Positions 1 to 27,290 of a DNA stretch of 64,000 nt are shown here, piece by piece. Position numbers and translations under genes: made by a program. The number at the start of each line of letters is the position of its first letter. The stretch's first letter is position 1. The notes under the pieces are model-generated. The model was not told where the DNA came from. It saw only the letters and a list, made by a program, of their open reading frames with translations, and did not search any database. The stretch lies in NCBI GenBank assembly GCA_010093815.1, contig ML996570.1; one strand, 5' to 3'. The DNA is from Pseudovirgaria hyperparasitica. Lineage: Eukaryota.

Positions 1-99
1 GGCCTAGCGTATCACGTAATATAATTAGGTAAGCCCGGGTACTACCTATATTAAAATCTTTTCTTAGAAATATTCCTTTCTTTAAAAAACTTCTTAACT

Positions 100-5510: not shown

Positions 5511-5511
5511 T

Positions 5512-10834: not shown

Positions 10835-10839
10835 GAGAA

Positions 10840-11870
10840 AGCTAGAGTCTACTTGGCTTCCTTAAGATAAGGGACGGAGTACGCTATTAAAAAGGGGCTT
10901 ACTTAGCTTTATTAAGTAAGGAGAGAGTAGTAGTATAGACATAGTACGCTAGCGTTAAGTATATCTAGGGTCTACCCTTAATAAGTAGATATTCTTCTAT
11001 AACTCTATTATAGCTAATAAGCTATTAGAGATCTTTATCTTTAGTATTTATACTAGCTATTCTAACTATAGATCTTTAATACTAACTTTAGTATAGAATC
11101 TAATTATTATATAAGCTACTAATTAGCCTATTTAAATATAGAAGAATCGCGCTATATATAATAGTACTCTTACTCTAGTTATTATACGCCGTAGTACCCT
11201 TAAGGCTAAGACTCTCTTATTATAGCGGGCTTTATATTTAAAGGCCTTTATTATCTACTCTTATAGTTAGTAATATCTTCTTTAGAATTAGTTATTATAT
11301 ATATACTAATATTAAATCTAGGGTTTAAGAATACTATACTATATAATAGGTATATTTATATCTATAATAGTATAAATAAATTTAAGATATATATAGGCTA
11401 TATTAGTCTATATAGCTACTTTAATAATATCTACTCTAACTATATATATACTAAAGTAATTACCCGCTATAATAAGAATTATAAGATTAAGAATATAAAG
11501 AATCTCTTATATAATAAGTTTATATACTATTTCTCTAATAGTCTACTATAGCTCTATCTATCTTTAGTTAGTAAGTATATAGTAGATAGCCTTAGTAGCT
11601 CTCCTAGTATAAAATATATTATATAATCTTAGAAAAAAACTAGTTAATATAGATTTCTAGGGAGATAGGTATTATATAATATATAAAGGTTATATTATAA
11701 ATATATAGTAGTAGAAATTAAAGAAATCTATACTTAAATCCTATAGAAATCTTAAGCTAATAACTTTATCTAATTAATACTATTAGGTCTAGAAGGGACT
11801 TCTATAGAAAATAGCTATAGAGACTTCTAACTTCTAACTTTAACTTCTGACTTTTAAGTTTTAGAAGTGT
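10840..11870. mobile_element. Unclassified, heavily RIP-mutated repeat remnant, possibly a DNA transposon end
   Basis: Extremely AT/TpA-rich with no ORF. Ends in ~6 tandem degenerate (G/A)ACTTCT units at 11822-11865, followed immediately by normal-GC sequence. Confidence 0.45.
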
Positions 11871-12135
11871 GGCCCGCTAACACATACCGTCCACAATATG
11901 ATACTCGCGTATCGACCCGTACTGCAAGATCAGCCGAAGAGGGCTCGTGCTTTTGCGGATTTCGACCGTTCCGGTATTGTCGGAGCGATTGCCATTGTGT
12001 CCGCCCGACAAATCGTCACTCTCACAGCTTCACCTTTAGGCTGCAAAACTGCGCCAGGGTCTGGTGCCATGCGCCAGCCAGCATTTATACCTCGTCTTCG
12101 AATCTCATAACTGCCAGCGCTTCGGTAAACGTCTT

Positions 12136-13897
12136 ATGGCCAACAACTTAATGATACCGCCAAATCTGGCGGTCGCGACTCCGCAACCATCTTTGACGCC
12201 GCGAGACCTCCCGTTGAATTTGATTGCGCTCATCATACAACATGTGCGTCTGCAGCATAATTGTATAGATCTGATATGTACTTACGATGTTGCACTAGAT
12301 GGACGACCTAGGCGATATAGCACGGCTTACCTGTACATGTCGCCTTCTATATTACATGGCTCTTCCGAAGCTTTGGGAACGCGTTACGCTTCGGTCATAT
12401 ACAGAGGTTAGATATATGGATGGGGTACCAGAAGGCTTCGGAAGTGGCTCGCCGTTTGCTATGGGTATCAACTCGCTGGTCACAGGCAATGTAGCTGCGT
12501 ACGTCAAGAGCTTTGCTTTGACCGGAGAATGGACAGAGCTGAACATGGACGAATATACGAAAGGCAGAGTTCCAGACAACGCTATGATGTTGAACATCTC
12601 GCTTCGAGCAGCATTGGACAAGATGCCGGAATTAGAGACTTTCAAGTAGGCACTAGCACAAATCGTTACTCGGCATTACTGATATAGACGCAGGTGGGAG
12701 TTGAATCCTAAACTTTCGCTCAACGTGTATCAAGGCCTAGCCCAAAGACCGAAGCTGAGCTCCCTTACACTGCGTTTCCCTTCTACTCGAATGGCGAGAC
12801 CAACTACTACGATCCCACCGATGCCTCAGCTCCGTAAATTCGTCGCCTACGAATTAGACCCTCTCTCCTACCCCGATGATATATCTATCCTCATAGCCCA
12901 ATCGAAGAAGTTACAGGACTTGACATTGCATTGGAATCCAAGAATTCGAAGAGATGCCGAACAGAGCGTGAATGTTGGCTCATATTTTGGACCTCTTGTA
13001 GCTTCACAACGAAAGCTTCCTCTAAAACGTCTTGGGTTCCACAATTTCTTTGCAGCTGCTACAGGCCCTGAATTTCACGAAATTGTGGATTTCCTTTTCT
13101 TAGAATGCATCAATATCCTTAACGTGAAGAGCACTAGAGACCACAGCACAGTTTTTACCGACGATACTTGGCGCAAGAAATCAATGAAAGGCACTCCATC
13201 GAATCTGAAATCATACCGGGGAGATGTACTAGACAAGCCGCATGCCCTTATGCTTGCAAAATGCTATAAGATGGAAGAGCTGATTTTCGTCAACACATCC
13301 AGATACTACGGGACGGACGGTACATCATCGTCCAATGGCACTCCTTCGACACCTAATTCGGCGGACCCTGAAACTCCTAGATTACTCCGTCCCTCACCTT
13401 TCGAGCTCGTGCATGTAGCGTCGGACTATTTAGCCGCTATCCATACGGCTCATACACATTCCCTGAAGCGGCTGTTACTCTCAGATCAGTGGCTTCTAGA
13501 ACCGACTGTCGTTCGAAAGCTTGTCAAGGCGTGCCCGAACCTTGAGCAGCTAGGTGTAGCTTTGGCGGATAATAGCCCTGAATCGGCCCGTATTTTCATT
13601 CCTGATGCTCCTAAAGTCTGGGCCTATCGAGCGCTAATAAAACCGAATTCAGAGCTGCAAGAGAAGATGCACGGCATGGATCCTCAAGACCTGGAGATTC
13701 TGGTAAGCTACGAATTCTGGAGACCGGAGTACCGCAACCTGAAATTCCTCGGTATGGGATGCACGCCGTATAAGTTAGGATCTGTGGGCAAACATCCGAA
13801 CGGATCTGGAAAATTTCTTCGACATTGCGAGTCACTGACTTGGGCTCAAGTGTCACATATTGAAATATGGGGAATGGACAACACCGGCTTCTTATGA
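12136..13897 (+). CDS. F-box-like protein with LRR-like C-terminus (3 exons)
   Basis: Spliced N-terminus ...DLPLNLIALIIQH|MDDLGDIARLTCTCRLLYYMALPKLW has the F-box pattern. Introns at ~12244-12298 and ~12646-12693. The 398-aa last ORF has LxxLxL repeats. Confidence 0.75.
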
Positions 13898-16323
13898 GAG
13901 AATGATCGCGCTTTGTGTACCAACCTACTACTCTGGTCTGAAATCTCCAGCTCGAGCTTGAAATGAGAAATCGACGGCCAATATGAGATATAACGACAAG
14001 CAGTGGGTGTCCTACGCCTTGGAGTGCTTACTCTCTCCGGTCTTGGTCGTCGAGAGGATCTTGAACCGCGGGAATCGCGCTACGCCAACCACCGTCTCGT
14101 CAATTAAGAACTCAATACCGCACTACTGGAGCATGCCAGACATCCTAGTAGGTCCAGTACACAAGACGTGTTACTGTGATTTATTTGATTGATACCACGG
14201 GCAGCCGATGAAGGTCATAATAGGCACATGTCGATGGATATAGATCTCGGAAAAATACATAATATCACCATTGACACTCACGAACCTTGACGTCACGAGT
14301 GAACTAACGTCAGGTATTGAAACCCAACATCGCCTTCCAACGCGTCTACTATATGCCGAGCATGGCGCTATGGCAATCGCCAACTCAAGATATAGCCCAA
14401 GTGTATCTGCTGCCAATTGTCAAATTGATATGCAGCCAAATATATGTCCGGCCCGCTGGCCTTACATACTAGTGACGCGATGATCTTCTATCAATATCGA
14501 TCGTGCACATCATCCCAGCCAAAACATATTTGTGCCGGAATCCACGACTGTCCATGACCGACTTCGATCACGGAACCTGCCGATCTTACAGACGACATTC
14601 GGCTCCGTTACATAGTGCATCGTAAACGCCGAGATCTTGCGAGCTTTCGCGAGGTGACGCAGGCCGCGATCGAAATTCTCTTAAGGCCTCTATTCATTTT
14701 CGTAATTGCGAACAACATAGCGTATCCCTAGGAATCTCAACCGACCAGTATGCGTCCTAGAGTTAGGAGAGGTGCACATTAGAAACCTGCATAACATCAC
14801 AAACGAAAAATACGAACACGCGAGTAAGACTAGCTAGTAAGGACTTCTTAAGCGAGTGTGAAGACCGTGGAAAGGCTGCACCTGGCGCCGGAGTTGGCTG
14901 GTGGCGCCCCGCCAGGATAGCCAGGTCACAGCCCTGTGGGATGAGGAGTCGTGCGGGTCATTCCGTCCGGTGTCTGATGGAAATCTCAGGACACGAAAAT
15001 TCCCTTCTTGGGAGGTAGGCGGCCAATGAGCACGCCACAGTCTTTGTGGAAGAGGGCGCTGACGGTGCGGCAGGGAAAACAAGAACGACGATGGATGGGC
15101 GTATGATCGTAGTCGTCTTATAACGGATGGCTCTATCTCGAATTGAATGAACATCACACTACTATCAGAGGTATGTGTATGACTTTCTTTTTGTGATATC
15201 TATACGCGTACATTACTTTTACATATTTGCTTTTCAGGTTTCGTCTATTGTGGCATGTCGCACTACACGGGATTTGAGGGCGATAGACCTCACTTCGTAA
15301 GTCAGTAACCTAAGCAGTGCTAGGAAATTTTATTTTCCGTTAGAGTCTGTTTGATAGGGTTTCAGGCGTTTCAAAGACCTTTCCTTTGTGATTTCTGCTT
15401 CAACACTTCTTTCTGACCTCACATGCACGCATCTGAGGTACGATGTAATAGTCTTGATTACCAAGGCATAGTCTCGGCTTACACCTTCATCTTTCTGCTC
15501 CGAAGAGCTATTCATCACAGTACCGATTGTTGGGCGAAATCAGTATCTATAGACCGTCAGTTGTAGGCGGTAAGGAGACCACCACAACTCCAGAGCAGGG
15601 CATTTGTCCACCATCAAAAGACAAACATCATATTCAGAGCCATGAACGTCGGCGGATCGACTTGCAGATAGATAACTACTCGTCTTTTAGACAAGTCAAA
15701 CTAAACACCAGAACTTCAAAATCGAGGACATCAGACGTGCCCAACGTACTTTCGCAAGAAGCCGACACGCAAAGTGAAGGCGAAAGTCAGACTGCACCCA
15801 GGTAATGGTGCATGATCCTATAACATAGTCGGAAGAGCTGAGTTCCCAAGCCGAGGGCAGACTCTGGAGGATGTAGTGTAGACATACAGTCACGGTTGTA
15901 TTCAAATGCTAGATCTTCTTCGAATTTAACACCGGCCTTCTATCTACACAACGCCCGGTCCACGCAAGGCCGTGAAACCAGTCGCTGCAGATTATGAGCA
16001 TAGTGAAGCAGATTATAATGCACAGAAGTAGTGCTGGCAGGCGGATTCGTGATATCAAGAGTCAATGCATCACTGCACAGTGAGTCAAGTAGCGTTCTTT
16101 TTCACCGCTTTGTATACATTGTTTTATCTCTCGACATATTCGGTAATGCCTAACACAAAGCCTGGTTGCGATATATGGCAGATCTCCGATTCGCGGCTAC
16201 GATACAACGGGCTTGTTTCGAACAGAGTGCGCAGCCGTAGAAACAAAGAAAATTTATCTCGCAATTCTATCAATGGGAGACTGGTACGAGCGATCTACCT
16301 CTGAGCAGATGTGTGCTATGCGC

Positions 16324-17401
16324 CTAGGAACTGGCAATAACGCGATAAGTGCCAACGATATCATCACCGTTCTTGATAGGCCCTAAGAAATGTCAGAGCG
16401 GGTATCAACAACAGGTACTCCTATTAACTTACAGCAGACCTCTCCTTCAACCTCGCCATCATCGCACTGGCCCTTTCCTGTGCTACAGTTCATGGTAGCC
16501 GTCCAGCCGACCTTACCAGATTGACCTGCAGGTACTGAGAACATCACTTGTTTAGATGTGCTTTCGGACTCAGTAAACTCTGTGCTGACACCAAGACTAA
16601 GAATATCGGCAATGCCTAAACTCATCGAGGTGGACCACTGTTGCGTACGTTCTTTAGTGATCGCGACTGAAGTTCCTCCACTGCCGCCTTGGACTTCCTG
16701 GTCATAGACAATCTGCACGTTGTCTGCAGGCTTTGTGAGAACCTCGCCTCCTTGCCAGCTGTTCTTGGTGCAGTCACGCTTGGACAGGATACTACGTGTC
16801 TGATGCTTCGCTCCCTGGAGCTCTGGTGGAGGGCCAACCTCAGCAGGCTCAATAATCGTACCGTTGGCATGCTTCAGGTATACACCACCGCGAGCACCGA
16901 CAGTTACAGAGCGAGCACCACCGAGTCCGCGGATCATCTTTGCTCCAGCACTGTCACAGTCGGTACCACAGCAAGTCTGAACCATAAAAGATGACTCCAT
17001 CGCCAAGGCGACACATGCCGGCTGCTTGAAAGCACCAATGGCAACACCACAGCCTGCGAGATCTGTACCGGCAGGTGTCTTGATGATTGTAGCACAGCCT
17101 GGCTCATGTGCTTGCACATCGAAGAAGACTGAGTAGCCACTTTGCTACGATTAGCATTCCAATCTGAACGTTGAATATTACTTGAGACTCACCCTCCCTC
17201 CGTACCCTGGTACCCTTGATTGGCGAAAACATCTTCCGAGTTGTAGACGACGCATTCTGGGTAACCGGTTCCAGCACTGGCGACAGCAGATGGACACTGC
17301 TCACAGGTGTTTTCGGTACACATGTAGAATGGATCTTGCGCAGCCACAGATGAGGCAAGAGCGGCTATAAGCACGCTGACTGAGATTCTGGAAGGCATCA
17401 T
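16324..17401 (-). CDS. Secreted Cys-rich protein with KR processing site and C-terminal aerolysin/ETX-MTX2-like Ser/Thr-rich beta domain (3 exons)
   Basis: Signal peptide MMPSRISVSVLIAALASSVAAQ. Introns 17140-17192 and 16383-16432 keep the frame. Sequence ILSKR|DC...TKERTQQWSTSMSLGIADILSLGVSTEFTESESTSKQVMFSVPAGQSG; ends WPIKNGDDIVGTYRVIASS*. The gene model is well supported; the fold call is inference. Confidence 0.8.
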
Positions 17402-18814
17402 AGAGACTGGTTTGGAAGCAAAGATTGTGTGAGTTTGAAGGTTTAAACTGTGATGAGGACGAGTCTCTGGGGGAGGCAAAGTAAGTTTATATATTCTTTG
17501 AACCCTCCTTCCACAGAGATTAGATTTTTGCAATTGCTCCAAGGAGCCTAATCAAGTTGATATCCTCGTCTCAGATCTCCTGAGCAGCCCTCCTGAACAA
17601 AACAATACATGTCATCAAATTTTACGACCATCGTCATCACCGACCTGATTTCTCGTTTACATCAGTACAATGATGTAATAAGGTTACCCCAGGATTGACG
17701 CTTGCTCCCACAAAATAACGCTTCATCCTACGTGTTGAGCGATTAGGTACAAGAATCGTTCCGCGGCCTTTTAAGCACTGTAAACAGTAGTAGTTTCGCC
17801 TAACAGCGCTAATTTTACCAACGAACGTAAGTTCGCCGCTAAAGCTTCCAATCCTACTCCACGCCGTCGTGGCTATCACCACCAAATCGTGGGTCCAGAT
17901 CTTGGCATTCACAGCCTTGGTGCTTTTTCATTTGGAATGTGGTGCTAGATCTACGATTCGACTCGCCTCCTGATGTTACTAACGACTTTAACTTAGATCC
18001 TTGATACAATCTCCACGAATGGCAAGTCTCAAATACGTAAAATTTGACCATGCTCCTCGTGATACTGTCAGGAACGTGCCGAATGGCCACGATGGAGCCA
18101 GGAGCTCGCTCAACGGTCAATGTGCTGCCTCTTGCCGGTCCGCGAGGCTGGATATGCGATTGTAGTATTCAAGGATCAGTCTAGCCTGTCTTGAGAGCAT
18201 CCTCCGTCAACGAATGCTATCATTCGAGACGCTATCGCTAATATCTACCCATACACATGCGAGTATCCCGACCTCGTTCGTCGTCACGTGGCGTCTTTTC
18301 ACTTGGCATGCATGCAAATAAACATCCCCATGGGGCTGGGAATCCTATGGTCAATATCGTAGCGTACAAGTCGACGTCAGAAACCCAAACTCAGATGTTG
18401 GCCATCGAAGAATGCCTTTGCATTTGGCTTGACCCAACAGACCATGGAGTCCATGAGACAATAAACTATCTGTGATGAAGCTAGACCTGAGGGAAGAGGT
18501 GACATCGTGGGCAAGAGAACGGATCCATGAGGATTTGGAATTGAGCAGTTCCCATCAGGAGCAATGTTACACTAAAGATTTGTACCATTAGAATATCACG
18601 AACTTGTGAGGACTGATGGCAATCCCCGTAAGACTAGCGTAACATAATCTACAATCTGAACTCCACACTCATTGAGCCTGAATTCTGGTATAAAAAGATG
18701 AGGCGTGCCTCTTCTCCACCTATTCCATCATATTCCTCTTAGACGATATACTGCGCCTACTGAATCCCCTTCTTTTCAGGTCAACGAAAAAGCTTTTTGC
18801 CTCAAGTTTTCACG

Positions 18815-19468
18815 ATGCTCTTCCAACACTCTCTTGCCACCCTCATCTCTCTCTTCGCCCTCACCTCCGCCATACCTCTCTCAGAGTACAAAGCCCAATA
18901 CACTGCCTCTGAAATTGAGGCCCTGCAAGCTCGTCAAGATCAAGAGTATAACTTCTGGTCTGTCCACACCTCCTTTTTCTTACACAAGGCATCGTCACCC
19001 CAGCAAATATTTCATCAGTCGCCCTTTGAGATATATTGATATATTAACGTCCGCAGGCGCGTTGACTTCTACACTTCCGGCTGTGATGATGAGCCCGCTA
19101 GTGGCTTCAGCGGCATGAACGACCAGATTTTCGAATGCACTGGTGGAGCTGAGGGTGGATTTGTATGTGCCTCATATTCCCTTCTCCCATTAATTATGTG
19201 TCATACCTACCTCTAGAGCCTCGTGTTGAGGAACGCCGCACTGACGTCTTCAATCACAGCACAACGCCAAGATGACTGATATGGCGAAGAACGGCCGTAA
19301 GGTCGTGCTGTACTCTGATCTTGCCTGTAGGAATGAGATTGGACAGGTTCTCAGGGATGGGACTTGTGTTGCTGCGGCTAGTGATGTAAGTTCTCATTTG
19401 ACTCGTGATGTGAGAGTGCTAATCTATGGTAGTCGGTCATCGAGGGTTACGCTATCGTGCCGTTTTAG
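18815..19468 (+). CDS. Small secreted Cys-containing protein, candidate effector (4 exons, ~135 aa)
   Basis: TATAAAA at ~18689. Spliced sequence MLFQHSLATLISLFALTSAIP...EYNFW|RVDFYTSGCDDEP...FECTGGAEGGF|HNAKMTD...KVVLYSDLACRNEIGQVLRDGTCVAAASD|SVIEGYAIVPF*. Three GT-AG introns; 4 Cys. Confidence 0.75.
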
Positions 19469-19658
19469 ACAAGTGACACAAGAGTTTGAACGCTGTTTGT
19501 GACTTCGAGCATACTGCACCAGTTGTTTAGATTCACTCCATAGTTATGTAAAAAGATCGTAATAAGACTTGAACCCCTCTGCGCTTCACTATGAACACCG
19601 ACCATACCAGAAACGCCTCACATGCAATAGCCGCTCCGAACAAAGACTCACTCCCATC

Positions 19659-21502
19659 TCAGTGGGTATTGACAGCATAGAAGTTCCAAAGCACACACCC
19701 CTTGTCGCCGCTTTCCAGGAACGATCCCAGATCCAGCTTGCTCGGATCACTTCCCACACATTGCCCCTTTGGCTCTACTCCCATGACTTTCCTAAGGTAC
19801 CTTTTGCACCGATCTCCGTGAATCTCGTACTTCTGTCGTGCCCCACAGCCCCAGTTTTGAGGTGTGCCAAAGTCCTGATACGCTGCTTCTGCTCGCACGA
19901 CAAGGTCGCCAAGGCTTCCTTTGTCAGTGACTCTCTTGCCGTCATTGGTGTAGTAGTAGGCGCATGCCGCCATACCGTCCTGAGCGCACGTGTCCTGAAT
20001 AAAGGCATTGGACGCCGGGATCTTGTCAGGGTCCAGCGTGTACGACTGGCCGTCGCCGGAGCGGTCGCAGAACTGACTGATGACGTCTTCGGCCATTTCA
20101 GGACTGATAGCGATGTGCTCGCCCTGGCTGATAAAGCCCTTGTCTTTGTTGTCTGGATAGCAGGAGAAGACGTCTACACCATTGGGGTGGAACTCGAAAG
20201 CGCCGCAATTGTCTGTGTCCGTGGTGATGCCGCCGTGCTTATAGTTGACGCTGCCCGTGTCGCAATTATCGACAGTTTCGCTGAGGTACTTGACACAGAG
20301 GTCTTTCTCGATTGTGTAGGATCCACTGCCTGTACATTTGTCTGAGTAACTGGCTGTGAAGGCGGACTCCTTGATGTAGCTGCCGTCATCCTTGGCCTTC
20401 AATACATGGCCATCCTGTGCCGTGCAGAAGTTATTGATCGCGTCTATTGCCGCGTCACGGTACATGTATTTAACAAAGATGTCACTAGAAGGGTTTTTGC
20501 AGCTAGATTCAGTCCTTGGATCGGCGTTGACCATGAAGTTGTAGGTGCCGCAGCCTTGTTCGAGGGAGCCACCACCGAACATCGAGTGAGAATCATACTG
20601 GCCTATGTCTATCATCAGTATGTTGAGATGCAATGCGGTCTTGTGATTCAGAACTTACACATGGAAAGAATTCTGCCAACAGCGTCGTTACAATTCTTGG
20701 CGCATCCATCATGTGTGCTAGAATACTTAAAGTCAAATTTCACTCGTACACTCTGAAGTTTGTCGTTCTTCCATGAGCTATCGTTTGGAAGGTCAGGCTG
20801 TCCAATCTCCTTGCTCTGATCCTTAGTAAGGTCCATCTTGCAAAACACTTCTGCAAGCGCCTTGATGTATCCCGGATCAGTTCCGCGTAGCAGTTGGTTA
20901 TTGCTGCCATACTTCTCACACTTAGGCGCAATCTCTTCGGCGTTATCTGGGGGTGAGCCCGCAGTCCATTGTGGCTGGTTGTCAACTTTCTTGAAGTCCA
21001 CTTTTGAGCCACCCGTGGGGAATGGACATGACGGTGGGTCACTTGTCTTTGGAGGGTCTGTCGTCTTTGGGGGCTCGTTATTCTGGCTTGATGTACTATA
21101 CTCAGGAGGGTTCGTTGGAGCTGGAGGCTCGCCAGGTATAGGTTTGTATAACCATGCAGCAAGGGCACCAGCGGCGACTATACCAGCACCAGCAGCAACG
21201 GCGATGGCAACAGTCTCTACAGCGCCATTTTCCTCCGTGAGTGTAGTTGTGACGGTGGTTGCGGCCGTGATAGGGGGCACTAAGCCACTAATCGCCAAGG
21301 ATGTTGGTGTAAATGTTTGGACAACCGTCGACCCATCGGCACCAGTATTTGTGAGTAACACTGGAGTGACTACAGGTGTCGTTACTTCAGGTGCCTCTTG
21401 CGGAAGTGGTTTGGCAGCCACGTCTGTGGAGTATGAGTTCCATAGTAGGAGATAGGTAGCAAGTCGTCTCTTAGAGAAGGGGGTTCGTCCAAAGAAACTC
21501 AT
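19659..21502 (-). CDS. Probably secreted protein: Thr/Pro-rich N-terminal region, hydrophobic segment, and three tandem Cys-rich KP4/Ecp2-like domains (2 exons)
   Basis: ORFs 20648-21550 and 19659-20633 join through intron 20603-20658 (M-T|GC = C). Three repeats of xxFC...Cxxx(L/V)xxxxxxC...G(G/S)...GC/CG-x-(Y/F/W)xF. The signal peptide is atypical. Confidence 0.75.
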
Positions 21503-22367
21503 AATGGATGCAATGCTGAGTTGTGCAGTGAAGATTGTTCGGATATACATTGTGACAAGGCCATGGCATCAGAGAGATATATAGAGATGCTTCGTAGACT
21601 TGTTCGTGACTTGCTCAGTGAATGTTCATAATTAGAACATCTCTTGCATCCGCTAAGGAGGATCTTCATCGTTGATAGAAGCTGAAAGTCTGACCAACAT
21701 GCTGTTTCAAGATTCATGAATCCATACCATAGCCTCATAGAGGCTATTCTCATCATAAAATGTGGATACGACCGTACGGTGGGGTCGGTGTTGTAGTCTG
21801 GAGCATAGAGAGATCTTAGAGCTAGACAACTATAGTCGATTACCTTTTGTGTGAAGATCGGCAATCGCCGCAAAATGGCCGTTAATAGAAGCTTATAGTG
21901 GGGCGAGGGGTAATCCCTGTAGTAGCGTGGTAGGCGCAGGCTTACTCCCAGATGAACCCCCCTCAGCCTCTGCCCTATGGCATCTATACGCTTAAGCATC
22001 TCACGTTATCTAATCGTCGCTATAGCTCGTACACATCCACTGTTGTGTTTCATGTGTAGTCTAAAATCCCGAAGATCTAAATTTGTGCTATGTGCGATTC
22101 ATCCGCTGCCCCTTCAGCATGCTATCGTGACCTTGTTAGATCACAACATCCCACATCCAACATGGAACCGACAATGAGCCACTCAAGCTCGACGCGAAAA
22201 TCTAATTTTGACCTTCGGCGGATCATAGTCACCCCAAATGTCACCGCCGCAGTCGCAAGATCCCGTAAGCAGAATGGCCGAGTCTTGATATATAGAGAGA
22301 AAGTTATGAGCCGATTAAACAAGACATTCCAGAGCATATCCTATTTCCTTCTAAGTCGACGAGTACA

Positions 22368-23467
22368 ATGAAGTCCTTACTATTCCTCCCATTCTGCTCT
22401 CTTTGTGCGGCACTGGTTGTTTCGACTCCAGACAATGTCAAAGCTACGCATATCGCACCTCGCGTTGGCCAGTCTTTCACAAATCCAGACAACGAGCCTC
22501 AATACGAAGACCCAGTGACCAAGGCAAAAGTGGATAAGGCTAAGATTCTGAGTGGTGTAGGCCCCAAGGAAGCAGACGATAGGTGGTTCGATTGGGACGA
22601 GACCTGCACTGATGCCGACCAACGCAAGATCATCTTTCAGACCTTCGAGCATACTATTCTGATGGCAGATTATGGGGCTAGTCATCTTGATAATCTCAAG
22701 AAGGGCCTTCCAGAACCAGTAACGGATGATGCTTCAAAGCCGAACGACAATAATCGCAAAGCTATCTTCCAGACCGATCCCGCCTATGCCCAGATGTTTA
22801 ATGGACACGACAATCGTATAAAATATGTCCGAGACACTTTTGGACTTGTGTCAAGCGAGGCACAAAAGGCTCCTGGTGCTAGAAATGGACAGAAACAGGG
22901 AGCTCTACGTTTCATTTGCGATAAAACTGGCGCAATCAGGAGCGGAGATGGTACGAAAGGGGCTTGCGAGTAAGTTGTTACAGCATCTGACAACGACTTA
23001 CTTACTGGCTGACAACATACTATAGTGGTGGCACTCAAGCCTTTACTCTTGGTCCCTATGATCCAAAGTATGAGCCAACTATTGACATCAAGTGGAGCTT
23101 CGAGACTTCGTCCAGCATCACGTTTTGCCCACCATTTTTCGATGACAGCAAGTTCCCCAACATAGCCGATAGAGTCGGCCTCCCACAGGATCAGCAGACG
23201 TTGGACAAAGTCGATAACCGGGAGCGGATCTTGCTACATGAGTACACTCATCTACCGTGGGTCCGAAATCTTAATCCTGGGGCGAATCTTGACTTCATCG
23301 GATACCAGAATGCGGCGCAGGTAATGGCGAAGTCGGGTTGGGGACAGGCTAAGAAGACTCCAGACAACTATGCTTGGCTCACTGTATATGCCTACTTTAA
23401 CAATGACGCTGGAGGCTGCCTGGACGATGCATGGCCTAAAGGTGAAGATAAACCTTGCAAGCTATGA
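22368..23467 (+). CDS. Secreted zinc metalloprotease, M35 deuterolysin/aspzincin-like (2 exons)
   Basis: Signal peptide MKSLLFLPFCSLCAA. Intron 22970-23025. Motifs ITFCPPFF, ILLHEYTH (HEXXH), downstream Asp in NLDFIGY, and TPDNYAW (cf. NADNY). Confidence 0.8.
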
Positions 23468-23565: not shown

Positions 23566-24882
23566 TCAACTTGTCTTCAAAAGCTCCTCGTACTCTTCTT
23601 GCCCAGGTACACCATAGTCATACCCAGACGGTGGCGGGTGATGATCCACGTACGACTCCTCGGTCCAATTCACATTAGACACGGGACAGTCTTGTATCAA
23701 CGCATGGATCTCCTCAAGATTAGCATAAGGACTGAACATGTCATTTCCCTCTAAGATATTGAATCCTCGTACTTCTATTCGAGCGAGACGAGGAAATGAC
23801 TGTATGGTGAGTACTTTCAAGACTTGCCCAAGGAAAGAGGCGGCAAGAACGAGGACATTAGGCTGCATGTATGTTGAGAACGTGAGGCGATCTGTCCCAC
23901 AACCTGAAGAGTTGGGCTCCTCGTAGTGAATTGAATCGTTGCCAAAGTACAGGACGAGTGATTCGAGTGATTTCCTGGTCTTGAGCATGATTCGAACCGT
24001 GTGTTGATACATGGTCTCGTAGTTCCGAAGATCAATCTCCATGTTGATTGGCGCTAACTTCACTTCCAAATGTGTAAGTGACAGGGAGTGGGAAGATAGT
24101 AAGCGTAACGGAAACCACATGGGACCAGGAAAGACGCATGCGCTCCCTGATTCCTGCCGCTGGAATAATGCTTCATCAATAGGGCCAGATATCTCCGCTC
24201 TGTTCTTTAAATTGGGAATGTAAGGATCCGCAAGATCCTCAAGCATAGGCAGACCTCCTGGCAATGAACCCTCGTCTCCTAGATGGTCTAAGCGCAAGCT
24301 ACGAAGATCGCTCGGCTCGAGGGCTGTGATGATGGCTCTCACAAGTTTCCGATTCATAGATCCTACGAGCCGGAGATCAGTGACAGCAGGAAACAAACGT
24401 GGTGGAGGTTGGCGACTGTATTCGATCTCACGTTCGCCGAGTATTTGTGCTAGGTCCAATCGAGTGACACTATTGAGCCGATCAAAGACCACCCAAGTTT
24501 CGCGGTCAATATCCGTAAGATCTGAACAATCCGAGTACACGAGTGTCCAAGTGAAGGAGTGGACATGAGTAGCGAGCTCTGGTCGGTCTGTCATGAGCTG
24601 GAGGAATGCGCGCTGGCGAGGAACCAGATTGCCAGGTTTGAATTTGTCATTGAAACTGGCGTACACAACAGGCATGACTACGTCATCCTCAAACTCAGGC
24701 AGTCTACCTCGATTGTGGCAGCTCAAGTCGACATGATAAAGAAGATATGGAAGGGAGAAAGCGTGCCATGCGGTGCAAGTGAGACCAGCTGCGATCAAAG
24801 ACTCGCTGTCTCCGACCAATGTTTCGAAAATGGACACTAGAATGTCAGATGGTATTTCTGGCATCTTCAAAGATGGCGCCAT
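23566..24882 (-). CDS. F-box-like protein with LRR-like region (intronless, 438 aa)
   Basis: N-terminal EIPSDILVSIFETL...LIAAGLTCTAWHAFSLPYLLYHVDL is F-box-like, followed by LxxLxL motifs. Confidence 0.7.
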   Translation of the reverse strand: MAPSLKMPEIPSDILVSIFETLVGDSESLIAAGLTCTAWHAFSLPYLLYHVDLSCHNRGRLPEFEDDVVMPVVYASFNDKFKPGNLVPRQRAFLQLMTDRPELATHVHSFTWTLVYSDCSDLTDIDRETWVVFDRLNSVTRLDLAQILGEREIEYSRQPPPRLFPAVTDLRLVGSMNRKLVRAIITALEPSDLRSLRLDHLGDEGSLPGGLPMLEDLADPYIPNLKNRAEISGPIDEALFQRQESGSACVFPGPMWFPLRLLSSHSLSLTHLEVKLAPINMEIDLRNYETMYQHTVRIMLKTRKSLESLVLYFGNDSIHYEEPNSSGCGTDRLTFSTYMQPNVLVLAASFLGQVLKVLTIQSFPRLARIEVRGFNILEGNDMFSPYANLEEIHALIQDCPVSNVNWTEESYVDHHPPPSGYDYGVPGQEEYEELLKTS

Positions 24883-25557
24883 CCTCTTATAAGTGATGGA
24901 ATTAGTGTCGTGTTGCGTAAGATGTTAAAGCGAAAAGGCGTAGTTGCCTTCTGTATCGGTATCGACAAGCGTTTCAAGTCGCTTTGGAGGAATGAAGTGA
25001 CGACCCCATCGAGGAGGTATAAGTTGAGGTTTTGGCTTCATGCGATGATGATGGAGGGTGAAGACAGGTCGGGGACAGCTTGGCCACACTGTTGGAGAAG
25101 TGAGATAGTGGTGTTTTGGTGGTATTCTAGCGCTGACAGGATCCATTCAGCCTCAGAGGACCCCACTAAGACTCCTAAATTAGGACACGATTCCCTGAAC
25201 CTTGCGAAATACACATACTTGTACTTGCGATCAATAGGTGAAAGCATATTCTATCAATCGATGACGACCGGTCTCCATCGACAAGCAGTGTTGAGAGATG
25301 AGGGCGAAGCATTGCAACCGCATATACCCTTCTATTTATGCCATACGAGGCTATGGAAACATGAAGAACTATCTCATCGACCAAGCGCATGCTTCTCCTC
25401 GTAAATGCCGCATCATGTCAAGCTGACCTGTCAACAGGCTCTCACATGGTTTGCCATCCCATCGCCAGCAATATGCAAAGGACATCTACCATATTAGACA
25501 TTTAAGGCATCCCACAGCATCATATTGCCACGCGCATTCCCTTCCTGGGGTCGCTAT

Positions 25558-27290
25558 TCAGTCGCGCTCGTGATGTCCGAAGACACACGTCGGATTACGA
25601 CAAACCCCGTCTCTGCTCTCCGCAGCCCTGCACTCCTTCGTGCGCGTCACCAGCCACAGTGCATTCCACTCCTTGTCGTCTAGCGGCCGGCACGAATGCT
25701 GCTTCCGACACTTCGGCCCACCGACCTCTTTACATTCCCCTCGCAGGAATAGGTATGGGCATAGATTGCCCTTACGTACCCAGTCGAGCGCCTCTTTGTT
25801 GACCGATAACAAACGATCCACGCGCTTCCCACGTTTATTGTACAGAGGAGGGCCAAGGCGCTCGGGATGGGCCTGAGAGTTTCGGTAGGTCTGCGTGCCA
25901 GTGGCAGTCTTGATCCCGATGGTAGTAATAGCGGCCAAGGCCGCGCCAGCAGCCAGAGGCACAGGCTTGGGCTCCCGTGGAGCAGCAGCGGCAGTATTTG
26001 TAAAGACTTGTGGTAAGGACAAGGCATGAGATGCTGCTTCGGCATAAGAGGTTACTTCACCGGTCTTTACGGAGTATGAAGGTTCTTGCGTCTTGCCGTT
26101 CCTGAAATGAGTCGCAGGGTCGATAAAAACTGTGTTGAACTGAGTTGTGCGGAGCGGACCCAATTGCTCGATGTCGGCTTCACTGAGAGGCGCAGAGGTA
26201 TTGCGCAGCATGGTCATGCGGTGGAGACAGTGCACGTTCATGTCAAATGTCGCGAAATGCTCCGTTGTGTCAGATCCGAGGCCGAGTCCGAGGATAATAT
26301 GCTTGCAAGCGTGAACTTGGAGGTGGAAGTCCAAGACGCCTTGAAACGTTAGTATGAAGTCCGTTTGGATGAGATGAGAAACACTTACCGCGTATCTTTT
26401 CCGCAGCGCGGCCCTTGCTGGGCCCGACGTCCGAGAAGTCACATAGTGGAAAGCGACCAGAGAAACCACTAAAGAAAGGACGAAGCTCACTGACTGAAGC
26501 AGCGCTTGCGCCTCTACTGAGCATGCTCTGGCAGAGTCCTTCCATGTTGGCGTATGCCTTGACTACGACGTCGATCACGTCGTTGTCAGTGATATTCAGC
26601 TCGAGATATTGTCTGATAGCACTGTTCAGCTTCTCAGCTGCGATGGCTCCACTCTTACCGCTCTTGGGAGTTAAAGCGTCGCGGAACTGTACAATTAGCG
26701 CGCTGTAGGCTTTGACAGAGAGAGAGAGAGAGTGTGTGTGTGTGTGTGTGTGAGAGTGAGAGAGAGAGAGTGAGAGAGAGAGAGAGTGAGAGTGAGAGAG
26801 AGTGAGAGAGCAATTGTAACTTACCACGAACGCATCAGAGCTTGCGTCCAAGAGGACCAGAACATATGGCTTCACGCCATCGACAGCTCCAGAGCTACCA
26901 GTGCCCACGTTAGCCGTCGCCAACGAACCAAACTCTGTTGAAGTCGTCAGTCTCGAGACAGCTTGGTCTGACCGTGGATAGAGTTGCAAGCGGTTCATGA
27001 TGTGCTCCAGGGCACCGCTATTGGAGTCGACGGGAGACAAGTCTCCATTCTGTACGATGGACAGCTTCCATTCCAACAGTATCTTCGCGTCTACGGCGCG
27101 TTGGCGCTCGATAAGAGCTTCATCGCGCTCCTTTGTGGCTGTAGTCAGGAGTTCAATAACGCGCTAAACTTTTGTCAGTAGCTACGAATATCGAGGTGCT
27201 AGTCTTCCTTACAGCAATGAAGCCCTGGCGCTTGCGATCGAAGTCACTGTACTCAGCCAAGAGTTCTGGGACAGTCTGAGAGCTCGACAT
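25558..27290 (-). CDS. Coiled-coil, NYN/PIN-like domain and C-terminal CCCH zinc-finger protein (multi-exon)
   Basis: Starts MSSSQTVPELLAEYSDFDRKRQGFIA|gtaagg. Contains PYVLVLLDASSDAF, VVVKAYANMEGL, FFSGFSGRFPLCDFSDVGPSKGRAAEKIR and CKHIILG. C-terminal CPYLFLRGEC...C...H and C...C...C.FGH. Confidence 0.75.
26717..26810. repeat. Compound microsatellite (GA)n(GT)n(GAGAGT)n inside an intron
   Basis: Directly visible; lies within intron 26687-26824 of the CCCH gene. Confidence 0.95.

What the first reader, a model, noticed from the sequence alone, without database searches (positions are those of the whole stretch)
16324..23467. Four-gene secreted cassette: pore-former-like, small Cys protein, triple KP4/Ecp2-like protein and M35 protease in two divergent pairs
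Seen in sequence: four consecutive genes with secreted-type N-termini, arranged <- -> <- ->, with no housekeeping gene among them. They lie ~4.5 kb from a RIP'd transposon block and between two F-box-like genes. Established: aerolysin-family beta-pore-forming proteins are typically made as pro-toxins needing proteolysis, KP4/Ecp2-fold proteins are fungal toxins/effectors, and M35 proteases are secreted. Inference: this may be a co-regulated multi-component secreted toxin or antagonism module, with the protease as activator, the pore-former as delivery component and the KP4-like domains as cargo. I do not know of this being described as a cluster.
Basis: partly seen in the sequence, partly recalled or inferred. 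Interest (0 to 1): 0.8.

Follow-up and report, generated by a model that had tools for sequence, protein, structure and literature searches.

The report
Neighbouring secretory genes, one conserved pair
Four neighbouring fungal genes for secreted or membrane proteins are real, but only two of them (a lectin-like membrane protein and a zinc protease) are found together in other fungi, so a four-part toxin kit is unlikely.

Summary
The window comes from Pseudovirgaria hyperparasitica, going by the names on the 100%-identical database proteins. The four genes exist at the stated coordinates and lie in the order - + - +.

- **G1** has an N-terminal Cys domain, a conserved LxKR site, and a DUF6060 domain. 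The model of that domain matches only aerolysin-type pore-formers (Z 3.8-5.9, moderate confidence).
- **G2** is a 132-aa protein with a signal peptide and 4 Cys. I could not search for homologues.
- **G3** has a weak signal-like N-terminus, one Ala/Gly-rich hydrophobic segment, and three Cys-rich alpha/beta domains. These match the fungal lectins Y3 and LDL best (Z 10.5 and 9.3), then Zt-KP4 (8.7) and plant DUF26.
- **G4** is a secreted aspzincin-like HExxH protein that scores below Pfam's M35 threshold.

The four-gene toxin module is not supported. None of the 8 other named G1 genera appears in the G3 or G4 hit lists. G1 also carries its own Kex2-type site.

G3 and G4 do stay together. They share a contig in all three other species where both were found, spanning three fungal classes in all. 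Both are spliced and transcribed, with divergent 5' ends about 225-310 bp apart. The layout recalls the PRA1-ZRT1 locus. How the pair works is inferred, not shown.

The parts
16324..17398 (-). G1: 323-aa secreted protein (P0001, EJ05DRAFT_485200). It has a signal peptide, an N-terminal Cys-rich domain (10 Cys, aa 27-130), a linker, a single KR at aa 189-190, and a DUF6060 domain. Introns at 17140-17192 and 16383-16432.
   Evidence: Splice reading. 100% match to P0001. Pfam DUF6060 at 45.3 bits against a cut-off of 26.5. Cys and KR positions.
16324..16778 (-). G1 C-terminal module (aa 190-323, DUF6060), predicted aerolysin-like beta fold. A Ser/Thr-rich hairpin at about aa 233-263 has a low-confidence tip.
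   Evidence: AlphaFold2 model: block-mean pLDDT 44-84 over aa 191-323, 72-84 in 8 of the 13 full blocks, below 50 at aa 243-254. In pdb_via_wide the top 13 rows, and in pdb_via the top 22 rows, are all aerolysin/ETX-MTX2-type proteins, Z 3.8-5.9. Foldseek gives the same families, but with E of 0.019 or higher.
18815..19468 (+). G2: predicted 132-aa small secreted protein with 4 Cys. Exons 18815-18945, 19057-19162, 19260-19385, 19433-19468.
   Evidence: Open frame across three GT..AG introns that have branch-point-like CTGAC/CTAAT motifs. No Pfam match. No RNA contig covers it. No homologue search was possible.
19659..21502 (-). G3: 595-aa protein (P0048, EJ05DRAFT_475364). It has a weak signal-like N-terminus, a conserved Ser/Thr-rich stretch, an Ala/Gly-rich hydrophobic segment, a Pro-rich linker, and three Cys-rich alpha/beta domains. 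Intron at 20603-20658.
   Evidence: RNA contigs cover 19496/19537-21843 and skip the intron. All 21 Cys are invariant in 11 of 11 full-length relatives.
21146..21211 (-). G3 hydrophobic segment, aa 98-119 (13 of 22 residues are Ala or Gly). It is a putative membrane anchor; its orientation is unresolved.
   Evidence: Kyte-Doolittle 19-residue mean up to 2.22. The segment is present in 11 of 11 relatives.
19662..20935 (-). G3 triple lectin/KP4-fold region (aa 190-595), with 7 Cys per domain counting C159 just upstream of aa 190.
   Evidence: Block-mean pLDDT 74-97 over aa 191-590, 80 or more in 36 of 40 blocks. Y3 Z 10.5, LDL Z 9.3, Zt-KP4 Z 8.7, ginkbilobin-2/Gnk2 Z 7.5-7.7, PDLP5/8 Z 7.2-7.4, KP4 Z 4.9. 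In Foldseek, all 4 matches with E of 0.001 or less are PDLP5/8. Pfam Fungal_lectin_2 matches 13 of 27 family members at E of 0.1 or less.
21503..22367 (.). Shared upstream region of G3 and G4. The RNA contigs end at 21843 (G3) and begin at 22068 or 22152 (G4), which leaves about 225-310 bp between the divergent 5' ends.
   Evidence: table 8. No notable repeats.
22368..23467 (+). G4: 347-aa secreted aspzincin-like metalloprotein (P0059, EJ05DRAFT_509995). Intron at 22970-23025.
   Evidence: The RNA contig skips the intron. Pfam Aspzincin_M35 at 18.4 bits against a cut-off of 30. The Atlas model of this protein aligns to a bacterial M35 cluster (TM 0.79 by that row, 191 residues).
23237..23293 (+). 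G4 metal-site motifs: HEYTH (aa 272-276), and Asp290 within DFIGY.
   Evidence: HExxH and DxxG[YF] are present in 7 of the 7 relatives that cover the site (read from alignment A2).

Best explanation
The four genes are real but are not one unit.

**G1** is a stand-alone two-domain secreted protein. A Kex2-type LxKR site separates an N-terminal Cys-rich domain from a DUF6060 domain whose predicted fold is aerolysin-like, so G1 is a candidate beta-pore-former.

**G2** is an orphan small secreted Cys protein.

**G3 and G4** form the only conserved unit: a head-to-head pair that appears to be inherited vertically in Pezizomycotina. The pair is transcribed from a short shared upstream region.

Inferred mechanism for the pair: the two products meet at the cell surface. 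G3, held by its hydrophobic segment, presents three lectin-type (Y3/LDL/KP4-fold) domains that bind glycans. The secreted HExxH protease G4 works beside it or on it. This is the same genomic logic as the secreted M35-like Pra1 and its membrane partner Zrt1.

- Shown: gene structures, fold similarities, linkage, transcription.
- Inferred: glycan binding, protease activity, any contact between G3 and G4, and the orientation of G3 in the membrane.
For: **Gene models.**. RNA contigs skip the G3 and G4 introns and leave about 225-310 bp between their 5' ends.

**Linkage.** G3 and G4 relatives carry consecutive identifiers in Emydomyces testavorans (PRK78_005352 / PRK78_005353, both on a 5,135,197-bp contig) and in Nemania abortiva (F5Y10DRAFT_242970 / 242969, contig 227,008 bp). 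In Hypoxylon crocopeplum both lie on a contig of 388,029 bp. That is 3 of the 3 other species in which both were found. With the window's own species this covers Dothideomycetes, Eurotiomycetes and Sordariomycetes.

**Descent.** The G3 and G4 trees group by class: Sordariomycetes 100/100 for G3, Eurotiomycetes 100/100 for G4. This fits vertical descent.

**G3 family.** It is small (46 representatives at E of 0.001 or less among 1.84 billion) and keeps its full architecture. All 21 Cys are invariant in 11 of 11 relatives.

**Folds.**

**G4.** HExxH plus Asp in 7 of 7 relatives (read from the alignment; positions), and an M35-like Atlas model.

**G1.** LxKR in 20 of 24 relatives.

**Against a four-gene unit.** 0 of 8 other named G1 genera appear among the G3 or G4 hits.

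**Precedent.** PRA1-ZRT1: a secreted HRXXH/M35-like protein and a membrane protein share an upstream region, and the arrangement is conserved from Ascomycota to Basidiomycota (PMC3386192; I read passages only).
Against: - True adjacency elsewhere rests on identifiers and contig lengths in result tables, not on DNA that I could read. For Hypoxylon only a shared contig is shown.
- The searches were limited by word index and by length, so both the co-occurrence and the absence of G1 from G3/G4 species are undersampled.
- G3's orientation is unresolved. A short N-terminal signal-like segment followed by one hydrophobic segment would put the Cys-rich domains in the cytosol, out of reach of a secreted protease. 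The flank charges do not decide it.
- G4's nearest Atlas cluster has 2,869 members, while G3's family has only 46 representatives. Most such proteases therefore probably have no G3 partner.
- The expression evidence is two runs of one sample, kept as contigs. This shows presence, not co-regulation.
- The aerolysin-like call for G1 rests on Z below 6 and a model with mean pLDDT 56. There is no sequence-level support: 0 PDB hits, and no aerolysin or ETX_MTX2 Pfam hit among 24 members.
Confidence: 0.5

Rival explanations
1. Pro-toxin release. G4 cleaves G3 in its conserved Pro-rich linker just outside the membrane. This sheds a soluble triple KP4/lectin-fold protein that acts as an antifungal or glycan-targeting toxin against competitors or, in this mycoparasite, against rust hosts.
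For: - One G3 domain matches Zt-KP4-1 at Z 8.7. Zt-KP4-1 and UmV-KP4 are reported to inhibit fungal growth (PMC12382754, abstract and passages read).
- The linker after the hydrophobic segment is unusually conserved: KP.PG.PPAPT.PP.Y.TS.Q.
- The pair is linked in other species.
- The organism is described as a mycoparasite of rust sori (PMC3317363, abstract in the search listing).
Against: - The pair also occurs in species such as Emydomyces, Nemania and Hypoxylon. To my knowledge these are not mycoparasites.
- G3 is conserved at 49-56% identity to the window's protein across four classes and keeps its architecture, unlike fast-evolving toxins or effectors.
- By sequence, its domains lean to the lectin families, not to KP4 or Hce2 (0 of 27).
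- No cleavage site has been shown.
Confidence: 0.15
2. Linkage without a shared function. G3 and G4 stay adjacent because they share a compact bidirectional promoter or by slow decay of ancestral gene order, and their products never meet.
For: - Only four species are documented.
- No interaction or co-regulation has been shown.
- G4-type proteases are far more numerous than G3.
Against: To my knowledge, gene order is generally poorly conserved between Pezizomycotina classes. Both families are patchy, yet all 3 other species where both were found have them on one contig, two of them with consecutive identifiers.
Confidence: 0.2
3. Sensor model. G3 is a type I surface sensor: its short Ser/Thr-rich N-terminal part faces outward and the three Cys-rich domains are cytosolic. 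G4 trims the ectodomain to signal, as a yapsin does with the mucin Msb2 (that comparison is recalled, not checked here).
For: - A signal-like N-terminus with an Ala-x-Ala-type end, conserved in the family (RRLAAYLLLWN..EV.A|RP).
- A conserved Ser/Thr-rich stretch before the hydrophobic segment.
- A Lys just after that segment in most relatives.
Against: G3 has 21 invariant Cys with no CxxC-type spacing. The structural relatives Y3, LDL, DUF26 and KP4 are extracellular, and DUF26 and the two lectins are disulfide-bonded (PMC6368629, passages read). Both points argue for an extracytoplasmic location.
Confidence: 0.1
4. One reading: all four genes form one multi-component toxin, with protease as activator, pore-former as delivery part, KP4-like domains as cargo, and a small accessory protein.
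For: All four encode secretory-pathway proteins, lie next to each other, and sit near a RIP-affected repeat block. The fold calls for G1, G3 and G4 are broadly right.
Against: - 0 of 8 other named G1 genera appear among the G3 or G4 hits.
- G1 has its own LxKR site (20 of 24).
- G3 carries a hydrophobic anchor-like segment and is conserved like a cellular protein.
- The RNA contigs at G1 carry antisense introns only.
Confidence: 0.05

Closest known systems
PRA1-ZRT1 (aspf2-zrfC) zinc-acquisition locus of fungi
   Same: A secreted M35-like (aspzincin-fold) protein and a membrane protein are encoded head-to-head with a shared upstream region. The arrangement is conserved over large evolutionary distances and the distribution is patchy (PMC3386192, passages read).
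   Different: G4 keeps the catalytic Glu (HEYTH), whereas Pra1 has HRXXH (the motif name is and from PF13933). G3 is not a ZIP transporter: it has one hydrophobic segment plus three lectin-fold domains and no transporter Pfam match. Nothing links this pair to zinc.
Aerolysin / ETX-MTX2 beta-pore-forming proteins (epsilon toxin, parasporin-2, Laetiporus LSL, Dln1, Bombina aerolysin-like protein)
   Same: G1 residues 190-323 are predicted as long twisted beta strands with a Ser/Thr-rich hairpin. All top structural rows are members of this group. G1 has an N-terminal accessory domain followed by the pore module, as in LSL and Dln1.
   Different: Z is only 3.8-5.9 and rmsd is 5.8-7.7 A. There is no sequence-level match to Pfam aerolysin or ETX_MTX2 models or to PDB chains. 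The module is short (about 134 aa). The processing site is an internal LxKR, not a C-terminal propeptide (that property of aerolysin is recalled).
Fungal lectins Y3 (Coprinus comatus) and LDL (Lyophyllum decastes), and plant DUF26 / Gnk2 / PDLP ectodomains
   Same: These are the best structural matches for G3's domains (Z 10.5, 9.3 and 7.2-7.7). Family members give sub-threshold Fungal_lectin_2 hits. The domains are arranged in tandem next to a membrane anchor, as in the PDLPs (PMC6368629, passages read).
   Different: G3 has three domains rather than one or two, with 7 Cys each. The anchor lies N-terminal to the domains, whereas in PDLPs and CRKs it lies C-terminal (recalled). No glycan-binding residues were checked. 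No member reached the Pfam cut-off in the scores that I saw (best 24.0 bits against 26.5).
KP4 / ECP2 (HCE2) structural superfamily of fungal effectors and killer toxins
   Same: The same alpha/beta sandwich: Zt-KP4 at Z 8.7 over 98 of 107 residues, and UmV-KP4 at Z 4.9.
   Different: 0 of 27 family members match the Pfam KP4 or Hce2 models at E of 0.1 or less. G3 is large, carries an anchor-like segment, and is conserved across classes, unlike small secreted effectors.
M35 aspzincins (deuterolysin, peptidyl-Lys metalloendopeptidase)
   Same: HExxH with a downstream Asp, a signal peptide, and an Atlas model that aligns to M35 clusters.
   Different: Pfam Aspzincin_M35 scores only 18.4-23.6 bits against a cut-off of 30, in 3 of 8 members. 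The Asp sits in DxxG[YF], not in the canonical GTxDxxYG (that motif is recalled). The profile finds no M35 structure by sequence.

Membership tests
DUF6060 (PF19535) | Score above Pfam's gathering cut-off | tested here: met
   G1 scores 45.3 bits against 26.5. 24 of 24 aligned relatives match.
Aerolysin / ETX-MTX2 beta-pore-formers (G1) | Elongated beta-sheet pore-forming module | tested here: inconclusive
   The top 13 rows (pdb_via_wide) and top 22 rows (pdb_via) are all from this group, but Z is 3.8-5.9 and rmsd 5.8-7.7 A. The model's block-mean pLDDT is 44-84 in this part. Foldseek E is 0.019 or higher.
Aerolysin / ETX-MTX2 beta-pore-formers (G1) | Amphipathic Ser/Thr-rich insertion hairpin | tested here: inconclusive
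   A hairpin at about aa 233-263 has a Ser/Thr/Glu-rich tip and pLDDT below 50 at aa 243-254. I did not score the alternation pattern.
Aerolysin / ETX-MTX2 beta-pore-formers (G1) | Sequence match to the family's Pfam models or to solved members | tested here: not met
   No aerolysin or ETX_MTX2 family among the Pfam hits at E of 1 or less for 24 of 24 members. 0 PDB chains at E of 10 or less with the family profile.
Aerolysin / ETX-MTX2 beta-pore-formers (G1) | Oligomerisation and pore formation | not testable with these tools
   Needs recombinant protein, liposome or cell assays, and electron microscopy.
Kex2-processed secreted proteins (G1) | Dibasic LxKR-type site between two domains | tested here: met
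   [KR]R lies within two residues before the invariant Cys192 in 20 of 24 relatives. It is the only KR in G1. Cleavage itself was not tested.
Fungal_lectin_2 / LDL (PF18647) and Y3 (PF22803) lectins (G3) | Fold of the lectin domain | tested here: met
   Y3: Z 10.5, rmsd 3.9 A, 102 of 112 residues. LDL: Z 9.3, rmsd 3.0 A, 89 of 94 residues.
Fungal_lectin_2 / LDL (PF18647) and Y3 (PF22803) lectins (G3) | Score above Pfam's gathering cut-off | tested here: inconclusive
   G3 itself has E = 1. 13 of 27 relatives match at E of 0.1 or less (best 1.1e-5), and 1 of 27 matches GBD_Y3. The best score I saw was 24.0 bits against 26.5.
Fungal_lectin_2 / LDL (PF18647) and Y3 (PF22803) lectins (G3) | Glycan-binding site residues and glycan binding | not tested
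   No residue-level comparison was made. Binding needs glycan arrays.
KP4 (PF09044) / HCE2-ECP2 (PF14856) (G3) | Sequence match to the Pfam models | tested here: not met
   0 of 27 members at E of 0.1 or less. 0 families for the G3 open reading frames at E of 1 or less.
KP4 (PF09044) / HCE2-ECP2 (PF14856) (G3) | KP4-type alpha/beta sandwich fold | tested here: met
   Zt-KP4 (8acx_D): Z 8.7, rmsd 3.3 A, 98 of 107 residues. UmV-KP4 (1kpt): Z 4.9.
Plant DUF26 (PF01657) (G3) | C-X8-C-X2-C cysteine motif (motif recalled) | tested here: not met
   The Cys positions of G3 give no X8/X2 spacing. The closest is C267-x3-C271-x10-C282. The fold is nevertheless similar (PDLP5/8 Foldseek E 3.1e-5, Z 7.2-7.4).
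Aspzincin / M35 (PF14521, PF02102) (G4) | HExxH zinc-binding and catalytic motif | tested here: met
   HEYTH at aa 272-276. HExxH in 7 of the 7 relatives that cover the site (read from the alignment).
Aspzincin / M35 (PF14521, PF02102) (G4) | Third ligand Asp in GTxDxxYG (motif recalled) | tested here: inconclusive
   A conserved Asp290 lies in DxxG[YF], 14 residues after the second His. The motif differs from the canonical one, and I saw no residue-level alignment to the Pfam model.
Aspzincin / M35 (PF14521, PF02102) (G4) | Score above Pfam's gathering cut-off | tested here: not met
   18.4 bits against 30 for G4. 3 of 8 relatives match, best 23.6 bits.
Aspzincin / M35 (PF14521, PF02102) (G4) | Aspzincin fold | tested here: inconclusive
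   The Atlas's own model (pTM 0.70) aligns to a bacterial M35 cluster over 191 residues (TM 0.79 by that row, 0.50 by the query). The top feature cluster scores 0.97 and is named lysine-specific metallo-endopeptidase.
Pra1/AspF2 zincophores (PF13933 HRXXH) (G4) | HRXXH motif and a syntenic ZIP transporter | tested here: not met
   G4 has HEYTH. No PF13933 hit at E of 10 or less in 8 of 8 members. The partner G3 has no transporter domain.
Conserved head-to-head pair of a secreted protein and a membrane protein (PRA1-ZRT1 type layout) | Shared upstream region, conserved in distant taxa | tested here: met
   Divergent 5' ends lie about 225-310 bp apart. The genes are linked in 3 of the 3 other species with both genes, across three classes in all. 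Adjacency is read from identifiers and contig lengths, not from DNA.
Conserved head-to-head pair of a secreted protein and a membrane protein (PRA1-ZRT1 type layout) | Physical re-association of the secreted partner with the membrane partner | not testable with these tools
   Needs binding and localisation experiments.

The most novel reading that the evidence does not exclude
G3 and G4 are an undescribed, ancient two-gene cell-surface module of Pezizomycotina. A secreted aspzincin protease is functionally tied to a membrane-held protein with three Y3/LDL/KP4-fold domains. In the boldest form, the protease releases or activates a triple KP4-like antifungal lectin, which a rust hyperparasite could use against its host. 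Separately, DUF6060 would be a fungal branch of the aerolysin-type pore-formers, matured by Kex2.
Probability: 0.3. Interest if true: 0.6.

Novelty: new variant of a known kind. Interest (0 to 1): 0.4.

Why it matters
**The pair.** If G3 and G4 are a working unit, they would be a second example, after PRA1-ZRT1, of a secreted M35-like protein genetically tied to a membrane partner across fungal classes. That gives a concrete handle on two large, mostly uncharacterised groups: the fungal aspzincin-like proteins (2,869 members in the nearest Atlas cluster) and the KP4/lectin-fold proteins. It would also show that KP4/Y3-fold domains are used in conserved, membrane-linked cellular proteins and not only in small effectors.

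**G1.** An aerolysin-like fold for DUF6060 would give a first functional hypothesis for a domain that the one paper found in the library lists as unknown (PMC10381368; search, passages).

**The scan.** A run of secretory genes beside a RIP-affected block is not by itself a module. Linkage in other genomes separates the real unit from its neighbours.

Tried and rejected
- **Whole genome.** None is held, so I could not look for paralogues, test linkage within the genome, or estimate how often four secretory genes lie in a row.
- **The listing of cluster members.** The call for accessions of the paired proteins was not sent because the database is switched off.
- **Metagenome scan with the G3 family.** The closer alignment A4 gave one 1,215-bp locus, too short to show a neighbour.
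- **Complex prediction, G3 aa 118-595 with G4 aa 20-347.** No verdict: score 0.00, controls not run. This is evidence neither for nor against binding.
- **PDB sequence searches.** Only repeat-protein noise or nothing for G4 exon 2, the G4 profile, the G3 profile and the G1 profile.
- **Pairwise BLAST between the three G3 domains.** Nothing significant; best E 0.095.
- **Sequencing runs.** No RNA holder is listed as such. The two runs laid are contigs of one sample. They do not cover G2 (18815-19468) and show no sense-spliced G1 form. This says nothing about silence.
- **Upstream-region repeats.** Only short two-copy matches.
- **Earlier findings of this scan.** None, by place or by sequence.
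- **Literature.** No paper holds both 'aspzincin' and 'KP4', and none holds PF18647, PF22803, GBD_Y3 or Fungal_lectin_2. I made no search for the gene pair itself.
- **G2 homologues.** Not searched.
- **Disulfide geometry of the G3 model.** Could not be inspected, because the model coordinates are not in the script box.
- **Supplementary files.** I opened none of any paper.

Full report
**Origin and gene models**

The database proteins that match the window at 98-100% are named as hypothetical proteins of Pseudovirgaria hyperparasitica. This is a Dothideomycete described as a mycoparasite of rust sori (PMC3317363; I saw only the abstract in the listing).

Reading the sequence for GT..AG introns gives four genes that fill 16324-23467 exactly:

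| Gene | Strand | CDS | Introns |
|---|---|---|---|
| G1 | - | 16324-17398 | 17140-17192, 16383-16432 |
| G2 | + | 18815-19468 | 18946-19056, 19163-19259, 19386-19432 |
| G3 | - | 19659-21502 | 20603-20658 |
| G4 | + | 22368-23467 | 22970-23025 |

G1, G3 and G4 equal the database proteins P0001 (323 aa), P0048 (595 aa) and P0059 (347 aa). tblastn puts their exons at these coordinates and finds no second copy in the window. G2 is my own model: 132 aa, 4 Cys, one stop at the end. I could not look for it in a database.

**Surroundings**

Positions 1-12000 carry a RIP signature: TpA/ApT is 1.62 and (CpA+TpG)/(ApC+GpT) is 0.15-0.36, against 0.69-0.80 and 1.13-1.26 elsewhere. GC falls to 0.24-0.37 between 4001 and 12000.

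The gene to the right (23566-24924, -) passes Pfam F-box-like (25.0 bits, cut-off 24.3). The gene to the left (12299-13897, +) matches it below threshold (17.5 bits).

**G1**

Pfam finds DUF6060 (45.3 bits, cut-off 26.5) in G1 and in 24 of 24 aligned relatives. The word-index search gave 47 proteins at E of 0.001 or less among 517 candidates. The named ones come from Kalmusia, Stemphylium, Karstenula, Pyrenophora, Bimuria, Lophiostoma, Pochonia and Alternaria.

The architecture, in order:

- a signal peptide;
- a Cys-rich N-terminal domain (10 Cys between aa 27 and 130);
- a linker;
- the only KR of the protein at aa 189-190;
- the invariant Cys192, followed by the DUF6060 domain.

A [KR]R within two residues before that Cys is present in 20 of 24 relatives, mostly as LxKR. 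This is the form of a Kex2 site (the consensus is recalled).

The AlphaFold2 model built on the 24-sequence alignment is weak overall (mean pLDDT 56). It is usable for most of aa 191-323, where 8 of the 13 full 10-residue blocks average 72-84 and the rest 44-68, with a dip below 50 at aa 243-254.

- Foldseek found nothing at E of 0.001 or less. Its top rows were Dln1, parasporin-2, lamprey immune protein, epsilon toxin, aerolysin and LSL.
- The Foldseek-independent search over 48,161 chains put 13 aerolysin/ETX-MTX2-type proteins in the first 13 rows for aa 190-323: epsilon toxin Z 5.9, parasporin-2 Z 5.8, LSL Z 5.7, down to Cry23Aa1 Z 3.8.
- The second look at Foldseek's candidates put 22 such entries in the first 22 rows.
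- These Z values are in the range the tool calls middling, and rmsd is 5.8-7.7 A.
- By sequence there is no link: 0 PDB chains at E of 10 or less, and no aerolysin or ETX_MTX2 Pfam hit.

I therefore rate 'aerolysin-like pore-former' as the best fold hypothesis, at roughly 0.6, not as membership. The one paper in the library that mentions DUF6060 lists it as a domain of unknown function in a candidate effector (PMC10381368; search, passages read).

**G3: sequence and family**

The family is small and keeps its architecture. An exhaustive HMMER pass over 1.84 billion representatives found 46 proteins at E of 0.001 or less, 31 at 1e-10 or less and 17 at 1e-30 or less. Many are exon-sized fragments.

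The 'longer' word search gave 11 proteins. Nine are of 582-621 aa, with 46-57% identity to the query exon. These nine come from Emydomyces, Hypoxylon (two species), Cryoendolithus, Nemania, Ilyonectria, Neopestalotiopsis, Microsporum and Bisporella. The other two are the window's own protein and a 1,102-aa Xylaria model that carries two precomputed Pfam domains and a glycoside hydrolase family 49 name.

In 11 of 11 full-length relatives the following are conserved:

- a short basic-then-hydrophobic N-terminus ending in an Ala-x-Ala-like motif;
- a Ser/Thr-rich stretch (FTPTS.SISGL.PPIT.ATT.TTT);
- a hydrophobic segment (aa 98-119 in G3, 13 of 22 residues Ala or Gly, Kyte-Doolittle mean up to 2.22);
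- a Pro-rich linker;
- all 21 Cys, seven per domain.

**G3: fold**

The model is confident for aa 190-595 (36 of 40 ten-residue blocks average 80 or more) and poor before that.

- Foldseek's only matches at E of 0.001 or less (4 of 4) are the tandem DUF26 ectodomains of Arabidopsis PDLP5 and PDLP8.
- The wide search gives Y3 Z 10.5, LDL Z 9.3, Gnk2 Z 7.7, PDLP5/8 Z 7.4/7.2, Zt-KP4 Z 7.2 and UmV-KP4 Z 4.9.
- The second look raises Zt-KP4 to Z 8.7, with 98 of 107 residues aligned at rmsd 3.3 A.

By sequence, 13 of 27 family members match Pfam Fungal_lectin_2 at E of 0.1 or less (best 1.1e-5), one matches GBD_Y3, and none matches KP4 or Hce2. G3 itself reaches only E = 1.

The literature agrees that these folds are close:

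- DUF26 domains are reported to resemble LDL and Y3 (PMC6368629, passages read).
- ECP2/HCE2 proteins are reported to form one group of a KP4 structural superfamily (PMC12382754, abstract and passages read).

So 'triple KP4/Ecp2-like' is right as a fold class. The nearer relatives are the Y3/LDL lectins.

**G3: orientation**

This stays open. A cleaved signal peptide followed by one stop-transfer segment would leave the Cys-rich domains in the cytosol. Their disulfide-type Cys pattern and their extracellular structural relatives argue for the outside. The flank charges do not decide it. I put about two to one on an extracytoplasmic location. This is inference.

**G4**

It has a clear signal-type N-terminus, HEYTH at aa 272-276, and a conserved Asp290 in DxxG[YF]. 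Both motifs are present in the 7 of 7 relatives that cover the site (read from the alignment).

Pfam Aspzincin_M35 stays below threshold: 18.4 bits for G4, and 3 of 8 relatives match with a best score of 23.6, against a cut-off of 30. The family profile finds no solved M35 structure by sequence.

The ESM Atlas holds this sequence. Its nearest feature cluster (score 0.97, 2,869 members, Ascomycota) is named lysine-specific metallo-endopeptidase domain protein. The Atlas's own model aligns over 191 residues (aa 51-332) to a bacterial M35 cluster (TM 0.79 by that row).

I call G4 an aspzincin-like metalloprotease. It is not a proven M35 member.

**Linkage in other genomes**

None of the 8 other genera named for G1 appears among the 9 other genera named for G3 or the 6 named for G4.

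G3 and G4 hits, in contrast, share three species, and in each both proteins sit on a contig of the same length:

| Species | G3 relative | G4 relative | Contig length (bp) |
|---|---|---|---|
| Emydomyces testavorans | PRK78_005352 | PRK78_005353 | 5,135,197 |
| Nemania abortiva | F5Y10DRAFT_242970 | F5Y10DRAFT_242969 | 227,008 |
| Hypoxylon crocopeplum | P0050 | P0074 | 388,029 |

With the window, that makes four species in Dothideomycetes, Eurotiomycetes and Sordariomycetes.

Maximum-likelihood trees of both families group by class: G3 has Sordariomycetes at 100/100 and the two Dothideomycetes at 87/81; G4 has Eurotiomycetes at 100/100. The trees used 14 and 7 rows. The class labels for the rows that I did not look up are from my own knowledge. 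This fits vertical descent with many losses and gives no sign of transfer.

Limits:

- I read adjacency from identifiers and contig lengths in result tables, not from DNA.
- The searches are bounded by a word index and by length windows.
- The tools that could have fetched fungal neighbourhoods were closed, switched off, or returned one short contig.

**Transcripts**

Two runs of one sample hold the region as contigs. They skip the annotated introns of G3 and G4 at canonical ends, so they derive from RNA.

- **G3** is covered from 19496/19537 to 21843.
- **G4** is covered from 22068 or 22152 onward. Only about 225-310 bp therefore lie between the divergent 5' ends.
- **At G1**, the one long contig carries three introns whose GT..AG ends lie on the + strand (16080-16181, 16392-16437, 17481-17574). 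It leaves G1's own introns unspliced and runs about 3.7 kb further left. It is thus antisense to G1.
- **G2** is not covered.

Contigs show presence only. Depth cannot rank genes, and a gap in cover is no evidence of silence.

**How it most likely works**

*Shown:* four real genes; the fold classes; the conserved LxKR in G1; the G3-G4 linkage in four species; divergent transcription from a short shared region.

*Inferred:*

- G1 matures by Kex2-type cleavage and may form pores on its own.
- G3 and G4 are co-regulated and act together at the cell surface, with G3 binding glycans through its lectin-type domains and G4 cutting proteins beside it or cutting G3 itself.

The nearest precedent is the PRA1-ZRT1 (aspf2-zrfC) locus. 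There, a secreted HRXXH/M35-like protein and its membrane partner share an upstream region from Ascomycota to Basidiomycota and bind each other (PMC3386192, passages read). G4 differs in keeping the catalytic Glu, and G3 is not a transporter.

The rivals are protease-triggered release of a triple KP4-like toxin, a type I sensor trimmed by G4, linkage without a shared function, and the original four-part toxin. They are listed with their odds in the Rival explanations section.

**Verdict**

The four-gene toxin module is not supported.

What remains of interest is a conserved two-gene pair that I found no paper on (searches; neither searched for the pair itself) and a fold hypothesis for DUF6060. 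Both are moderate in surprise and testable with ordinary experiments.

Noticed in passing
window 16080-17711 (+ strand), across G1: The RNA contigs at the G1 locus carry three introns with GT..AG on the + strand (16080-16181, 16392-16437, 17481-17574) and leave G1's own introns unspliced. This is a spliced antisense transcript. The 5,089-nt contig runs about 3.7 kb further left, toward the F-box-like gene at 12299-13897. A contig across two genes does not show that it is a single transcript.
   Followed up: partly
window 1-4000: The RIP signature (TpA/ApT 1.62, (CpA+TpG)/(ApC+GpT) 0.36) also covers the first 4 kb, where GC is still 0.42-0.45. The RIP-affected block is therefore larger than the AT-rich part at 4001-12000.
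   Followed up: partly
window 21503-21843 (G3 5' leader): The G3 transcript has a leader of about 340 nt. It holds an in-frame upstream ATG 16 codons before the annotated start (at 21550) and a short out-of-frame upstream ORF (ATG near 21565). Homologues align to the annotated start.
   Followed up: no
P0057 (Microsporum audouinii) and P0055 (Xylaria arbuscula), relatives of G3: Both gene models look fused to a neighbouring gene. P0057 carries a DPM3 domain at its C-terminus (E 4.9e-18). P0055 (1,102 aa, on a 6,872-bp contig) carries two precomputed Pfam domains and a glycoside hydrolase family 49 N-terminal name in the search table. In those genomes the gene on that side of G3 is therefore not a G2 relative.
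   Followed up: no
window 18144-18582: A short, low-depth RNA contig lies in the G1-G2 intergenic region, outside any gene model that I could make.
   Followed up: no
window 25558-27163 (-): The next gene beyond the right F-box-like gene has a DUF7923 domain (E 1.2e-20) and a weak tandem CCCH zinc-finger match. Further on, 31463-33487 (-) is a long ORF that I took by eye for an NAD kinase; I did not run it against Pfam. Ordinary cellular genes thus resume right after the cluster.
   Followed up: no
Atlas result for G4, structure row 5: A 90-member Ascomycota cluster automatically named 'Killer toxin subunits alpha beta' (498 aa) aligns to the G4 model over 256 residues (TM 0.59 by query). The name is automatic and was not checked.
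   Followed up: no
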